Below, in pieces: positions 35,991 through 40,338 of a DNA stretch of 64,000 bases (the first letter of the stretch is position 1; every line of letters begins with the position of its first letter). A program made the translations under genes and the position numbers. Source of the DNA: Escherichia coli O127:H6 str. E2348/69 (GTDB lineage: Bacteria > Pseudomonadota > Gammaproteobacteria > Enterobacterales > Enterobacteriaceae); NCBI RefSeq assembly GCF_000026545.1, contig NC_011601.1. One strand, given 5' to 3'. The notes below the pieces were generated by a model. It made no database searches and was not told the DNA's origin. It saw only the letters and a list, made by a program, of their open reading frames with translations.

Positions 35991-36911
35991 TTACCTTCCC
36001 GCTCTCCAGGCAACATCCCGTAGCGCCGATCGCGCAGCCTCACTGATACCACCTAACTGAAAAAATCCGTGGATAACGCCAAGGTAGCGTTGGCAGGTGC
36101 ATTGCACTCCTTGCCCTGTCATGCGGTGATACAACGCTTCACCTTCATCGCAAAGTGGGTCGTATTCAGCGGTAATGATATGTACAGGTGGCAATCCATT
36201 GAAATCATTGCGCCAAATAGGGCTGGCTTCAGGATGCCTGCGTTCAATGCCTGGCAGGTACATCTCAAAGCCGCTCAGTAAAGTGTCGCGTGTGATGATG
36301 TAATCGTGACCATTGCGTATGTAGCTTTCGAAATGCGCAGTCGCATCAAGCATAGGATAAATTAAGATGAGTTGTGCTGGTTGCCACTCGCCAGCACGCT
36401 TCAATCGCAAAGCAGTTACCTGCGCCAGATGCCCTCCCGCACTGTCACCGGCAAGAGTTATTCGTTGTTTATCAACGCCGAGTCGTTCGGCGTGTTGCCG
36501 GACTAATTCTGCACCTCGTTGTGCATCATCATGGGCGGCGGGGAAAGTATGTTCCGGTGCCAGCCGATACTGGACGGCAATAATCCGACATTGCCCGTAA
36601 TAGGCTAACTGGCGCAGCTGGTTGTCGTGAGTTGCGAACCCGCCGCTAACAAAACAGCCACCGTAGTAATAAATTATCGTCGGGAGTAATGTCGGGGCAT
36701 TCAGCGGTGACACTATTCGTAAGGTCATCCCTTCAAGTTCGATAGTCTGAATATCTACCCGCGTTTCTGTCTCACCCGCAAGGACAGCGCTGGCGATATA
36801 GCCCTCTCTGCGCTGCGTAATACTTTGTTGGCGCGATGAGGGGCGACCCGCAGCGATAAACTCTTCGACTAACTCTGCAATTCCTTTTTCCAGTGCCATA
36901 GTAGAACTCAT
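35991..36911 (-). CDS. Alpha/beta-hydrolase fold-3 esterase/lipase (HSL family)
   Basis: Oxyanion-hole region YYYGGCFVSGG and nucleophile elbow GDSAGG; catalytic Asp/His candidates downstream. Start ambiguous (GTG at 36941, ATG at 36911 or 36899). Not in the K-12 yiiD-fdhE interval as I recall it. Confidence 0.75.
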   Translation of the reverse strand: MSSTMALEKGIAELVEEFIAAGRPSSRQQSITQRREGYIASAVLAGETETRVDIQTIELEGMTLRIVSPLNAPTLLPTIIYYYGGCFVSGGFATHDNQLRQLAYYGQCRIIAVQYRLAPEHTFPAAHDDAQRGAELVRQHAERLGVDKQRITLAGDSAGGHLAQVTALRLKRAGEWQPAQLILIYPMLDATAHFESYIRNGHDYIITRDTLLSGFEMYLPGIERRHPEASPIWRNDFNGLPPVHIITAEYDPLCDEGEALYHRMTGQGVQCTCQRYLGVIHGFFQLGGISEAARSALRDVAWRAGR

Positions 36912-37127
36912 TTTGCTGTATGAATGTACAGTTTTATACACCCGTTTTTACTGGATGGATACAGGGAAATTCACGGGCGTGAAAAATCTGGAAAGCGCCT
37001 CGCAAATGTAAAGACAAACCCGGCAGAGACGTGGTTTTGCTGGAGCACTATCAGTAAGCTAGTGGTTTCAAGGGTACGTCAATGACGTACAAAAAGGATT
37101 GTTACTCTAAGCCAATGGCGTATAATT

Positions 37128-37439
37128 ATGCTCTTCATCGAAACGGAAATTTTTACTGAAGATGTTCAAAAACTGCTGACCGACGATGAATTCAGTCGTT
37201 TTCAGTTTTTCCTGGCCTTGAATCCTGACTATGGTGAGGTAATACCTGAAACTGGTGGGTTAAGAAAGGTTCGATGGGTGTCAGGAGGAAAGGGGAAACG
37301 TGCTGGTGTCAGGGTTATTTACTTTCATCAGGTTAAACATTATGAGATCAGATTACTGCTTATTTATCGTAAGGGTATTAAAGATGATCTGTCTCCCCAG
37401 GAAAAAGCAATGCTCCGGTTGTTAAATACGAGGTGGTAA
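37128..37439 (+). CDS. Type II toxin, HigB-2-like (RelE/ParE superfamily)
   Basis: 103-aa ORF resembling Vibrio cholerae HigB-2 (…GDVIPETGGLRKVRWVSGGKGKRAGVRVIYF…); toxin encoded upstream of an HTH antitoxin with stop and start abutting (TAA-ATG). Confidence 0.8.
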   Translation: MLFIETEIFTEDVQKLLTDDEFSRFQFFLALNPDYGEVIPETGGLRKVRWVSGGKGKRAGVRVIYFHQVKHYEIRLLLIYRKGIKDDLSPQEKAMLRLLNTRW

Positions 37440-37730
37440 ATGGATAAGGCACTTTTTGAGCGGTTGACTCACAGCATGGCCCAGATGAATGAAATTATTG
37501 AAGGAACGCGACAGCCTTCGCGGACTTTTGAAGTTGATGCTATGAAAATCAAAGAAATACGCCGCGCTTCAGGGTTGTCACAATCTAAATTTGCCGATCT
37601 TATTTCTGTAAGCGTAGACACGTTGCGTAACTGGGAGCAGGGGCGACGTTCACCGACCGGGCCTGCAAAGGCTTTGCTGCGAGCGATTGCCAATGATCCG
37701 CAACATGTGCTGCAAGCACTTAACCGTTAG
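37440..37730 (+). CDS. Type II antitoxin, HigA-2-like HTH (XRE family)
   Basis: 96-aa ORF with XRE-type helix-turn-helix (IRRASGLSQSKFADLISVSVDTLRNWEQGRR) immediately after the toxin gene. Confidence 0.8.
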   Translation: MDKALFERLTHSMAQMNEIIEGTRQPSRTFEVDAMKIKEIRRASGLSQSKFADLISVSVDTLRNWEQGRRSPTGPAKALLRAIANDPQHVLQALNR

Positions 37731-38334
37731 AGGCATGGTTATGCCATACAGAAAGCACCAGCATTCAGAACTCCTGTGAAAGCGGCGTAGTGCCACCTGC
37801 TCAGGAGTTTTGCTATGACCCGTAATCGTGCTGACCGTTGCCACCCTATGATGCGATTAAAAAAACTCATCGTCGCGCCGATGATTGACGTCAATGCTAT
37901 CGGATGATGTCAGGGGTGTTCCGGAAGGAATTCCTTGTTTCCCGAACTGTTACCAACAAAATTATAACGATGAGCAAGTTAAGACCGGTTGGTAGCAGTA
38001 CTGACCGGTCTGTGATGGATGATTAATTTCACCTTAAATCCGGGTGCTGTTAGGATGCTGACATTTTTCGGCTACACCATTCAGATTATGCAATTAAAGA
38101 TCCAATCAAAAAATAAACATCCCTGTATATAATATATTCATAGCACCTATAATTCATTTTGGGCGATAACTAAACCATTTTTGAGTAACAAATGAAACAA
38201 CTGCAACGGACTTATTATTTCTGGAAAACGTCTCGCAAAAACAAAACAATATGAAAAAATCCGCTTTCGTTAATTAACTTTCCGGCGTAATTTTCGCACA
38301 TACATTAATGAGTAATATATGTAAGGTGGTGGTA

Positions 38335-38553
38335 ATGGCGATGAATACGGTTTTTCTTCATTTATCAGAAGAGGCAATTAAACGGCTGAACAAGCTTCGG
38401 GGATGGCGTAAGGTTTCGCGCTCTGCAATTTTACGCGAAGCGGTAGAGCAATATCTGGAGCGGCAGCAATTTCCGGTGCGTAAGGCAAAAGGCGGCAGGC
38501 AAAGGGACGAGGCAGTTGGTGTTGAAGAACTATGTAAGCAGCATAAGGAATGA
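38335..38553 (+). CDS. Ribbon-helix-helix (CopG-like) small protein, YiiE/YiiF family
   Basis: 72 aa from the ATG at 38335 (MAMNTVFLHLSEEAIKRLNKLRGWRKVSRSAILREAVEQYL...), RHH signature; which of the two K-12 paralogs (yiiE or yiiF) it corresponds to is uncertain. Confidence 0.7.
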   Translation: MAMNTVFLHLSEEAIKRLNKLRGWRKVSRSAILREAVEQYLERQQFPVRKAKGGRQRDEAVGVEELCKQHKE

Positions 38554-38776
38554 CAAAAAGATTTTTTCATTCTTGAATATAAAAACAAAAAACCAGATGA
38601 CCTTATTCTGGTATTAATACAAGGTTGTTTTACTTGAACTTATAATAACTGCAACTGTTACATCATATCTGGAAAACGCCTCGCGAAATACGAGAGATTT
38701 TGCGGGAATAGCAGGTGTCGTCACACCCTATGAGCTGTAATCCGGGCGACCAGCGCCACCCGGAAAACGTCAGAGA

Positions 38777-39706
38777 TTACTCCCCTTCACCCGGAAACAG
38801 GAACGGGTTAATGGAACTACGGGCATAGCCTTCTTGCTCCATTCGCGCGTCCAGTACCAGAGAGGCGAGGTCATCTGCCACGGCTTCAACTTTCGGTTCT
38901 TTTTCCTGATAAAGAATCTTCAGGTAAGTGCCGCAGTCATCGCAGCTTTCGGCTTTAATCGCGGCCTGTTCGTCATCCAGCGACCAGTAATGCAGTTTGC
39001 CGCTCTGTTCACAGTTGCTGCATTTTACGCGCACTACGTGCCATTCAGTTTCACACAGGTTGCAGCGCAGGTAACGCAGACCCTGAGTGGTGCCAATTTG
39101 CACCATGCTGGACACCGGCATAGAGCCACATACCGGGCAATATTGACGTTGTTCGCCGTATTCAGCGCGGGCTTTGCCGGGGATCAGATTAGCCATCTGC
39201 GCCCAGTAGAGCGACAGCGCAGCCCAGATAAACGGCGCTTTATCGCTGCTGACGGACGAGAAATCAGAGGCAAACAGCGCGCTGGCCATATCTTCCAGCT
39301 CCTGAGTCGATGCCTTCTCCAGATTCTCAATCACTGCCAGCGCCGGGCCGCTCATTTCAGGTTTCAGCTCAGCAATTAGCGCCATCAGCAGCTTTTGCCA
39401 GTGCTTATCACGCGGCAGAACGTGAATATCCAGCGGGGGCTTGCCCTGTGCGCTGGCTTCTTTAATGCGCGCGGTCAGATCCATCTCCAGCGGATGGTCG
39501 TACAGCACCACTTCCTGGGCGTGGGCGATAAGCGCAGCAAAGCGCAGGTAATCACCCAGCGGATTATTTTCTGCCAGCTCGCGCAGACGCTCGGCGCGGC
39601 GGTTGTATAAATTCTTGAGCCGAGGGAACAATAACGGCGGAATCATATCCGCCGTACGTTTCTCGCTCGAACCCAGCTCATCTTGCGGGATTATGCGAAT
39701 ACTCAT
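38777..39706 (-). CDS. fdhE: Formate dehydrogenase formation protein FdhE
   Basis: 309-aa ORF with four CxxC pairs ([27 protein letters not shown]). Confidence 0.93.
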
Positions 39707-40338
39707 TCAGCTTTCTTTTCCGTTGTCTTGCGGACCTCACGGTACCAGCGCGGGTGATGTTTCTTTGCCCAGGCGCTGGTCACCCATCCTTCCACCATGG
39801 CGGTAATCGTGCCTTTCACCCAAAGGGCGGCGTAGATATGCACCATGATAACCACAATTAACGCCACTGCGGCAAATGAATGCAGCATTAACGCGAATCG
39901 GATCACCGGGATTGAGAAAGCAGGCGCAAAATAAGGACGCCAGATAATCACGCCGCTCACCAGCAGCAGAACCAGGAAAATAATCGCCGCCCAGAAAACG
40001 CATTTCTGACCGAAGTTATAACGCCCGGTGTCACCTACTTCCTCGTTGACGACGATCTTACGAATATTCTTCGCCCAAAAGATATCATCCCGATTGATTA
40101 GGTTGTGATGCCAGTAACGGAAAAACATGATGATGAACGAGGCAAACATAACCACGCCGACAAACGGGTGCAGAATGCGCGCCAGCTGCGGTGTGCCCAT
40201 GATTTGCATCAACCAGTTGAAGGACGGGAACAAAAAGCCCAGCCCGCTCACCGCCGCCAGGATGAAGCAGAAGGCGGTGATCCAGTGGTTGATACGTTCC
40301 GGCGCGGTGTAGCGCACGATGGTGTCACGTCGTTTCAT
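39703..40338 (-). CDS. fdoI: Formate dehydrogenase-O cytochrome b556 subunit
   Basis: 211-aa membrane ORF with haem-ligand histidines; overlaps fdoH stop. Confidence 0.9.

What the first reader, a model, noticed from the sequence alone, without database searches (positions are those of the whole stretch)
38199..38690. Imperfect approximately 43-nt direct repeat flanking the RHH gene
Seen in sequence: AACTGCAACGGACTTATTATTTCTGGAAAACGTCTCGCAAAAA (38199-38240) and AACTGCAACTGTTACATCATATCTGGAAAACGCCTCGCGAAATA (38647-38690) share the blocks AACTGCAAC and TCTGGAAAACG-CTCGC-AAA. One copy is about 95 bp upstream of the RHH start, the other about 95 bp downstream of its stop, followed by no gene before fdhE. 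This could be a duplicated promoter/operator left after loss of a second RHH paralog (K-12 has two adjacent RHH genes, yiiE and yiiF, as I recall), or paired binding sites for the RHH repressor itself.
Basis: seen in the sequence. Interest (0 to 1): 0.35.

Follow-up and report, generated by a model that had tools for sequence, protein, structure and literature searches.

The report
Duplicated CRP-S site; one orphaned
The two repeats are the upstream control regions of two duplicated small regulator genes, each holding a binding site for the competence activator pair CRP-Sxy; this strain deleted the second gene and its toxin partner, leaving that copy stranded.

Summary
The repeat is real: 38196-38240 and 38644-38688 match at 35 of 45 positions, against a maximum of 29 in 200 shuffles. 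The window is E. coli E2348/69.

- **Origin.** Most E. coli carry yiiE then yiiF at this locus, and about 1% also keep a vapC (PIN) toxin gene after yiiF. The yiiE and yiiF units are homologous along their whole length, so they are an old tandem duplication. The repeat is the best-conserved part of it.
- **Deletion.** Copy 2 is colinear with the region upstream of yiiF. A 657-bp deletion between two CGC triplets removed the yiiF promoter, yiiF and most of vapC. It left copy 2 and a 56-nt vapC tail. About 12-15% of complete genomes share this allele.
- **Function of the conserved block.** The 21-nt block is not an RHH operator. Its reverse complement, TGCGA-N6-TTCCA, matches the published E. 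coli CRP-S (Sxy-dependent CRP) motif at 10 of 10 positions. It is 16-17 of 20 identical to the validated sxy and ppdD sites.
- **Wider pattern.** A third copy lies at 36986-37007. The same site accompanies unrelated toxin-antitoxin cassettes across Enterobacteriaceae.

In vivo Sxy dependence is inferred, not shown.

The parts
38196..38240 (+). Repeat copy 1, upstream module of yiiE: block A AACTGCAAC (38199-38207), a 12-nt variable spacer, then the CRP-S site
38219..38240 (.). CRP-S site 1 (22-mer). The minus strand reads TTTTGCGAGACGTTTTCCAGAA, i.e. TGCGA-GACGTT-TTCCA, 10/10 to the E. coli CRP-S motif. Its centre is about 105 nt upstream of the yiiE ATG.
   Evidence: motif from PMC6728893
38335..38553 (+). 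yiiE, 72-aa ribbon-helix-helix (CopG/RHH_1) protein with no adjacent toxin gene
38644..38688 (+). Repeat copy 2: orphaned upstream module of the deleted yiiF(vapB)-vapC unit (block A at 38647-38655, then the CRP-S site)
38667..38688 (.). CRP-S site 2. The minus strand reads CGCGA-GGCGTT-TTCCA, 9/10. The T4-to-C change was created by the deletion junction; intact strains have TGCGA here.
38682..38685 (.). Deletion junction (38684|38685) within the CGC microhomology at 38682-38684. 657 bp are missing relative to strain SCU-301 (L006 1771-2427).
38685..38740 (+). 3' stub of the vapC (PIN toxin) gene: its last 56 nt including the stop codon TAA at 38738-38740
36986..37007 (.). CRP-S site 0. The minus strand reads TGCGA-GGCGCT-TTCCA, 10/10. 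It lies between the divergent hydrolase gene and the higB-like/nadS pair.
36916..36931 (.). LexA-box-like palindrome CTGTATGAATGTACAG, held 54-55 nt from CRP-S site 0 in five genera
35991..36899 (-). alpha/beta hydrolase (Abhydrolase_3) gene, divergent from CRP-S site 0 (start as annotated in RefSeq)
37128..37730 (+). higB-like toxin gene (37128-37439) and nadS Xre-HTH antitoxin gene (37440-37730), downstream of CRP-S site 0
38777..39706 (-). fdhE, the conserved right-hand boundary of the variable locus

Best explanation
The repeat is the conserved upstream regulatory module of two tandemly duplicated RHH gene units, yiiE and yiiF. yiiF is the antitoxin (vapB) of a vapBC toxin-antitoxin operon.

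Each module holds a 22-bp CRP-S site, the asymmetric low-affinity CRP site (TGCGA-N6-TTCCA) that needs the competence co-activator Sxy (TfoX) together with cAMP-CRP. Each also holds a short conserved block, AACTGCAAC, of unknown role.

In E2348/69 and about 12-15% of E. coli (phylogroup B2 strains, from my own knowledge of these strain names), a 657-bp deletion between two CGC triplets removed everything from the base after the site through yiiF and most of vapC. That orphaned copy 2.

Inferred mechanism: when Sxy is present and cAMP is high, CRP-Sxy binds site 1 and activates a downstream yiiE promoter in a class-I manner. Site 0 does the same for the LexA-boxed hydrolase promoter and/or higB-like/nadS. 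Site 2 now has no promoter or gene to act on and is probably inert.

Shown: the repeat, the duplication, the deletion, the motif identity and the purifying selection. Inferred: CRP-Sxy binding and Sxy-dependent transcription at these sites.
For: Structure and history:
- The window is 100% identical to E2348/69. Most genomes carry about 560 extra bp with yiiF.
- Copy 2 is colinear with the yiiF upstream region. Window 38682-38800 is 98.3% identical to the 3' end of vapC plus the spacer in SCU-301.
- The yiiE and yiiF units align end to end: 77% in block A plus site, 64% from site to ATG, 59% in the CDS. The proteins are 41% identical.
- Intact vapC is found in 57 of 5426 genomes. About 648 have only the 59-nt stub.

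Site identity:
- The published E. coli CRP-S motif TGCGA-N6-TTCCA (PMC6728893) has exactly 2 perfect matches in the 64-kb window, both of them these sites, against 0.15 expected. Copy 2 has 1 mismatch.
- Cameron and Redfield report that Enterobacteriaceae half-sites lacking C6 have G6. Here the half-sites are TGCGA and TGGAA.
- The validated Psxy site TTCGGAAAGAGCCTCGCAAA is 17/20 identical to the core. The validated PppdD site TCTTCGTAACGCCTCGCAAA is 16/20 identical.
- Natural variants change the spacer and keep TGCGA.

Selection and distribution:
- Across 5 genera the core is 97% identical while its 60-nt flanks are 35-46% identical.
- The exact 20-mer occurs in about 22 Enterobacterales species in at least 6 contexts, in either orientation, 63-125 nt upstream of toxin-antitoxin operons. 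This fits the reported orientation independence and class-I distances.

Precedents for toxin-antitoxin operons under CRP-S control: hicAB P1, H. influenzae toxTA, and Sxy-induced higBA and chpSB. K-12 higBA carries TGGAA-N6-TTCCA upstream.
Against: - No transcription start site data could be obtained for yiiE or yiiF, so class-I spacing is untested.
- No sigma-70 promoter-like site was found on the plus strand between site 1 and yiiE by the consensus scan.
- I could not access Sinha et al. 2009, so I cannot say whether yiiE or yiiF respond to Sxy.
- At the nrdG-cybC cassette, the site centre is about 47 nt from the transcription start I would predict from the obvious TATAAT. That is not a canonical CRP position.
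- The spacer is more conserved than expected for CRP sites. Part of that comes from my own search pattern.
- Block A is unexplained.
Confidence: 0.77

Rival explanations
1. The two repeats are operators for the RHH protein YiiE itself, bound on both sides of its gene.
For: RHH antitoxin-like proteins usually autoregulate. The sites flank the gene.
Against: The same 20-mer precedes cassettes with Xre-HTH or RelB antitoxins, a PTS gene and an uncharacterised 150-aa gene family, including in loci with no RHH gene. It matches CRP-S 10/10. It lies about 95 nt upstream of the start codon, whereas the invariant palindromic stretch ACATA..TATGT sits next to the ribosome-binding site. Copy 2 belongs to a different gene unit.
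Confidence: 0.06
2. The core is a recombination or cassette-junction site that assembles small gene cassettes into an array, as an integron would.
For: Three direct copies delimit units in the hydrolase-fdhE array. The core lies near the edges of inserted toxin-antitoxin cassettes. The E2348/69 deletion ends exactly at its edge.
Against: There is only one core per cassette and no second copy at the far end. The core lies 100-125 bp inside the insert, and empty sites lack it. No recombinase is present in the locus. It is conserved at 97% at an orthologous position with fixed spacing to a promoter. The deletion endpoint is explained by CGC microhomology.
Confidence: 0.05
3. The core is a sigma-54 (-24/-12) promoter, TGG-N9-CGCA.
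For: GG-N10-GC spacing is kept in all copies and variants.
Against: The sigma-54 ChIP-seq and gSELEX maps of K-12, which has two perfect copies, list no site at yiiE or yiiF in their main-text tables. The core occurs in both orientations relative to adjacent genes.
Confidence: 0.02
4. The similarity is only residual homology from the duplication, with no function.
For: The whole units are homologous.
Against: The core is 100% identical between the K-12 copies while the CDS is 59% identical. It is 97% against 35-46% conserved across genera.
Confidence: 0.03

Closest known systems
E. coli CRP-S sites (Sxy-dependent CRP sites) at the sxy and ppdD promoters
   Same: Same asymmetric motif TGCGA-N6-TTCCA/TTCCG. 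16-17 of 20 positions are identical, including the spacer GGCGTT/GGCTCT. Located upstream of the promoter region. Orientation-independent.
   Different: These sites precede RHH and toxin-antitoxin genes and a hydrolase, not DNA-uptake genes. Sxy and CRP dependence has not been tested here. One copy (site 2) has lost its target.
hicAB of E. coli K-12: distal CRP-S promoter P1 plus proximal antitoxin-repressed P2 (Turnbull and Gerdes 2017, as described in PMC11594946 and PMC6957337)
   Same: A toxin-antitoxin-type operon with a CRP-S site well upstream, and a separate conserved promoter-proximal region likely to hold the antitoxin operator.
   Different: The toxin-antitoxin families differ (HicAB against VapBC/RHH and HigB-like/Xre). 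A two-promoter architecture at yiiE or yiiF is only inferred.
Haemophilus influenzae toxTA (HI0660/HI0659)
   Same: A HigB/HigA-like toxin-antitoxin pair under a CRP-S promoter. The toxin is mostly deleted or decayed in natural strains (17 of 181 intact), which parallels vapC here (57 of 5426 intact).
   Different: Different species and locus. Homology between ToxTA and the window's higB-like/nadS pair was not tested.
VapBC (RHH antitoxin plus PIN toxin) type II toxin-antitoxin modules and their decay to orphan antitoxins
   Same: yiiF followed by a PIN gene with overlapping stop and start codons in SCU-301. K-12 keeps only yiiF. E2348/69 keeps only a toxin stub.
   Different: yiiE is a toxin-less paralog conserved in nearly all E. 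coli. Whether it still acts as an antitoxin or as a regulator is unknown.

Membership tests
CRP-S site (Sxy-dependent CRP site) | 22-bp CRP-type site with C6 in at least one half-site (TGCGA) | tested here: met
   TGCGA in sites 0 and 1 and in all K-12 and other strain copies. Site 2 reads CGCGA because of the deletion junction.
CRP-S site (Sxy-dependent CRP site) | E. coli-type asymmetry: second half-site TTCCA, never T6 (G6 in Enterobacteriaceae) | tested here: met
   TTCCA (plus strand TGGAA, G6) in all three copies; 10/10, 10/10 and 9/10 to the published motif.
CRP-S site (Sxy-dependent CRP site) | Sequence similarity to experimentally validated sites | tested here: met
   17/20 to Psxy and 16/20 to PppdD, both read from a K-12-derived genome.
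CRP-S site (Sxy-dependent CRP site) | Works in either orientation, at class-I distances (about -62 to -100) from the transcription start | tested here: inconclusive
   Both orientations are seen, and site edges lie 63-125 nt from start codons. Spacing to the hydrolase -10/LexA box is fixed at 54-55 nt. No transcription start site data were available.
CRP-S site (Sxy-dependent CRP site) | Restricted to lineages that have sxy (Enterobacteriaceae, Pasteurellaceae, Vibrionaceae) | tested here: met
   About 22 of the 41 genome hits are Enterobacterales, in at least 6 contexts. Of the four hits outside that order that I examined, at least one lies in a coding sequence; the rest were not examined and are presumed chance matches.
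CRP-S site (Sxy-dependent CRP site) | Weak specific binding by cAMP-CRP | not testable with these tools
   Needs EMSA or ChIP.
CRP-S site (Sxy-dependent CRP site) | Transcription requires both Sxy and cAMP-CRP | not testable with these tools
   Needs expression assays. Sinha et al. 2009 (PMC2725579) is not held.
VapBC type II toxin-antitoxin module (ancestral content downstream of copy 2) | RHH antitoxin gene immediately followed by a PIN-domain toxin gene | tested here: met
   In SCU-301 (L006): RHH_1 at 5.6e-6 and PIN at 4.4e-19, with overlapping stop and start. In the window only the last 56 nt of the toxin gene remain.
Tandem gene duplication (yiiE and yiiF units) | Colinear homology over upstream region and CDS, adjacent and in the same orientation | tested here: met
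   Global alignment gives 77%, 64% and 59% by segment. The proteins are 41% identical, E = 5e-12.
RHH autoregulatory operator | Site specific to the cognate RHH protein and overlapping its promoter | tested here: not met
   The core is shared with non-RHH cassettes and genes that are not toxin-antitoxin genes. It lies about 95 nt upstream of the ATG.
Sigma-54 promoter | Sigma-54 holoenzyme binding at GG-N10-GC | tested here: not met
   The spacing is present, but no site is reported at yiiE or yiiF in the K-12 ChIP-seq or gSELEX main-text tables.
ECF sigma-E promoter | GAACTT-like -35 about 16 nt upstream of TCTGA | tested here: not met
   The best -35-like score averages 3.06/6 against 2.48 for random sequence across 18 contexts, and half the contexts score 2 or less.
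Integron-like or att-type cassette recombination site | Copies at both cassette ends, or present in the empty target; an associated recombinase | tested here: not met
   One copy per cassette. Absent from empty sites and internal to the insert. No recombinase gene in the locus.
Known RNA family | Match to an Rfam covariance model | tested here: not met
   No hit at E <= 1 in 36800-38900.

The most novel reading that the evidence does not exclude
A near-identical CRP-S site, spacer included, may be a portable regulatory module that travels with horizontally acquired small gene cassettes across Enterobacteriaceae. I saw it with toxin-antitoxin pairs of at least three antitoxin families at four or more chromosomal sites, with an uncharacterised 150-aa gene family, and with a LexA-boxed hydrolase. 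If so, the Sxy/cAMP-CRP competence-starvation signal would be a general, selected input to chromosomal toxin-antitoxin islets, spread by copying and not by repeated convergence. My evidence shows the association and the selection. It does not show the regulation or the copying.
Probability: 0.4. Interest if true: 0.55.

Novelty: new member of a known kind. Interest (0 to 1): 0.35.

Why it matters
For the finding itself: it shows that an odd-looking repeat is a footprint of gene-unit duplication followed by toxin-antitoxin decay. It also dates a lineage-specific deletion that is shared by E2348/69 and strains such as 536 and ABU 83972.

More broadly: it assigns a concrete, testable regulator (CRP plus Sxy) to yiiE and yiiF, two E. 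coli genes of unknown function. It does the same for a hydrolase and a higB-like/nadS pair that K-12 lacks.

It also extends the few known cases of competence-regulated toxin-antitoxin operons (hicAB, toxTA) to a pattern seen in many Enterobacteriaceae. This bears on the open question of what signals chromosomal toxin-antitoxin modules respond to.

Tried and rejected
- **Sigma-54 promoter.** Suggested by the GG-N10-GC spacing. Rejected because the K-12 sigma-54 ChIP-seq and gSELEX papers list nothing at yiiE or yiiF in their main text.
- **ECF sigma-E promoter.** Block A as -35 and TCTGG as -10. Rejected because no -35-like element exists in most independent contexts.
- **Sigma-70 promoter inside the core.** No consistent -10 at a fixed distance, by inspection. 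The consensus scan found none on the plus strand.
- **Known RNA.** No Rfam hit.
- **Dispersed repeat or mobile element end.** Only 2-3 copies per genome, all at such loci. One per cassette. Rare on true plasmids and phage contigs.
- **att or integron-like junction.** Rejected by the comparison of filled and empty sites.
- **Literal literature search for the sequence.** Nothing found.
- **Transcription start site data.** Not retrievable.
- **Sinha et al. 2009 and the Cameron and Redfield supplement.** Not held.
- **hicAB P1 CRP-S site.** I could not recognise it by eye in K-12.
- **PurR, MarA/SoxS, IHF, Fis, FadR, IclR-type and Hin-type sites.** Compared from memory only. None fitted.

Full report
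**Observation.** The repeat finder reports 38196-38240 and 38644-38688 as a 45-nt direct repeat, 78% identical, 448 nt apart. In 200 dinucleotide-preserving shuffles of 37700-38800, the best 45-nt ungapped direct match averaged 25.6 identities (sd 1.0, maximum 29). The observed value is 35. The repeat has three parts: block A (AACTGCAAC), a poorly conserved 12-nt spacer, and a 21-nt block TCTGGAAAACG[T/C]CTCGC[A/G]AAA. That 21-mer has a third copy at 36987-37007 with 2 mismatches. This makes 3 matches in the window against 0.02 expected. The RHH gene is yiiE (38335-38553; RHH_1, E = 1.5e-11).

**Where it comes from.** The window is 100% identical to E. coli E2348/69. Most other E. coli have about 560 extra bp holding a second RHH gene, yiiF, between yiiE and fdhE. 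Window 38000-38688 is colinear with yiiE plus the intergenic region up to about 93 nt before yiiF, and the alignment then breaks. Strain SCU-301 has yiiE, then a yiiF-like RHH gene, then a PIN-domain VapC toxin gene, then fdhE. Window 38682-38800 is 98.3% identical to the last 59 nt of that vapC plus the vapC-fdhE spacer.

- E2348/69 therefore equals the vapBC-bearing form minus 657 bp (L006 1771-2427), deleted between two CGC triplets.
- The junction is at 38684|38685, and a 56-nt vapC stub remains at 38685-38740.
- K-12 represents an independent decay. There vapC is largely replaced by REP elements and lacks 15 nt that E2348/69 retains.
- Intact vapC survives in 57 of 5426 complete genomes. 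About 648 have only the stub, including strains 536 and ABU 83972. About 6 of 40 evenly sampled genomes carry the junction as one uninterrupted piece.

**The repeat is the tip of a tandem duplication.** In K-12 the yiiE and yiiF units align end to end: 77% identity over block A plus the 21-mer, 64% from there to the ATG, and 59% in the CDS. The proteins are 41% identical. The 21-mer itself is identical between the two K-12 copies. The upstream block is thus far better preserved than the genes.

**What the conserved block is.** I first tested promoter ideas.
- A sigma-54 reading (GG-N10-GC) is contradicted by the K-12 sigma-54 ChIP-seq and gSELEX papers, whose main-text tables list nothing at yiiE or yiiF.
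- A sigma-E reading fails because most independent contexts lack a -35-like element.
- Rfam finds nothing.

A scan of one genome per species found the exact 20-mer in 41 loci. About 22 are Enterobacterales, in at least six unrelated contexts:
- between the hydrolase gene and vapBC, higBA or a vapC remnant, next to fdhE;
- beside a relBE-like pair at nrdG-cybC;
- beside a Gp49/HTH pair at ilvY-ilvA (also in Salmonella);
- at infA-clpA;
- upstream of a PTS gene in Kosakonia;
- next to an uncharacterised 150-aa gene family.

The adjacent antitoxins are RHH, Xre-HTH and RelB proteins, so the block cannot be each one's operator. It occurs in either orientation relative to the nearest operon, 63-125 nt from start codons. 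At two sites that exist in filled and empty forms, it lies inside the inserted DNA, and the empty sites lack it. There is one copy per cassette. At the orthologous hydrolase-side position in five genera, the 20-mer is 97% identical while its 60-nt flanks are 35-46% identical.

**Identification as a CRP-S site.**
- The reverse complement of the block reads TT-TGCGA-GGCG[C/T]T-TTCCA-GA.
- Sondberg et al. 2019 quote the E. coli CRP-S motif of Sinha et al. 2009 as TGCGA-6N-TTCCA. They describe it as asymmetric, functional in either orientation, and acting in a class-I-like manner.
- Cameron and Redfield 2006 note that Enterobacteriaceae CRP-S half-sites lacking C6 always have G6.
- Searching the window with the published motif alone gives exactly two perfect hits, sites 0 and 1, against 0.15 expected. 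Site 2 has one mismatch, the T4-to-C change made by the deletion junction.
- The validated sxy-promoter site (TTCGGAAAGAGCCTCGCAAA) is 17/20 identical to the core. The validated ppdD site (TCTTCGTAACGCCTCGCAAA) is 16/20 identical, with an unbroken 13-nt run.
- Strain variants alter the spacer but never TGCGA.
- Toxin-antitoxin operons under CRP-S/Sxy control are documented: hicAB P1, H. influenzae toxTA, and Sxy-induced higBA, chpSB and hokD. K-12 higBA carries TGGAA-N6-TTCCA upstream.

**Mechanism (inferred).** With Sxy present and cAMP high, CRP-Sxy binds site 1 and activates a weak downstream yiiE promoter. YiiE probably autoregulates at the invariant promoter-proximal stretch, not at the repeat. 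Site 0 sits 54-55 nt from a conserved LexA-box-like palindrome and a -10-like element of the divergent hydrolase gene in all five genera, despite diverged intervening sequence. This places its centre near -71 of the transcription start I predict, a class-I position. It may also serve higB-like/nadS. Site 2 lost its promoter and genes, and is most likely a relic.

**Limits.**
- Whether yiiE and yiiF were already listed as Sxy-induced therefore remains open.
- Block A is invariant in all E. coli copies seen and is unexplained.

**Verdict.** The element belongs to a known class (CRP-S). Novelty is modest: new members, an orphaned copy, and a cross-genus association with toxin-antitoxin cassettes.

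Noticed in passing
window 36916-36931: A LexA-box-like palindrome, CTGTATGAATGTACAG, lies 15-18 nt upstream of the alpha/beta hydrolase start. It is conserved in E. coli, Citrobacter, Phytobacter, Superficieibacter and Enterobacter, always 54-55 nt from the CRP-S site. The hydrolase, which is absent from K-12, may be under joint SOS and CRP-Sxy control.
   Followed up: partly
window 38199-38207 and 38647-38655: Block A (AACTGCAAC) is invariant in every E. coli copy examined, while the 12 nt after it vary. CTGCAACG also occurs 17 nt downstream of the ppdD CRP-S site. From memory it resembles a CytR half-site (GTTGCATT). Its role is unknown.
   Followed up: partly
window 37128-37730: A higB-like toxin gene (weak RelE match) and a NadS/Xre-HTH antitoxin gene form an apparent toxin-antitoxin pair with a strong sigma-70-like promoter (TTGTTA-16-TATAAT, 37099-37126). 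K-12 lacks it.
   Followed up: partly
window 37731-38195: This non-coding stretch holds the decayed remains of two small hypothetical genes (73 and 92 aa) that are intact in strains WP3-W18-ESBL-08 and W46 (L055 2616-3167). For example, the ORF at 37815-37907 is a truncated copy of the first.
   Followed up: partly
window 38699-38713: The 15 nt TTTGCGGGAATAGCA are absent from K-12, EDL933 and CFSAN064035. They are genuine vapC coding sequence, so the K-12-type alleles carry an independent small deletion plus a REP/BIME insertion in place of vapC.
   Followed up: yes
L012, L018, L020 (infA-clpA site); L033, L040, L041, L042: An uncharacterised 145-151-aa protein family (shared ...LTGLLHDM... 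motif; no Pfam or NCBIfam match) starts about 300 nt from a CRP-S core in two different genomic contexts in other Enterobacteriaceae.
   Followed up: partly
window 40169-40185 (minus strand, inside fdoI): CTGGCGCGCATTCTGCA matches, with 1 mismatch, the intragenic sigma-54 binding site IS47 that Bonocora et al. 2015 report upstream of fdhE.
   Followed up: partly
L054 (NZ_LN868946.1) and several multi-Mb PLSDB records: Records labelled as plasmids carry core chromosomal genes (ilvC-ilvY-ilvA-ilvD) or are 4-5 Mb long. They are evidently chromosomal sequence filed as plasmids.
   Followed up: no
L004 1177 and L006 477 (gene annotated transposase or hypothetical, upstream of yiiE in EDL933 and SCU-301): A core-like sequence, TTTGAAAAACGCCTCGC(C/T)GA (4 mismatches), lies inside a 304-aa ORF that has no Pfam family. 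It may be chance.
   Followed up: no
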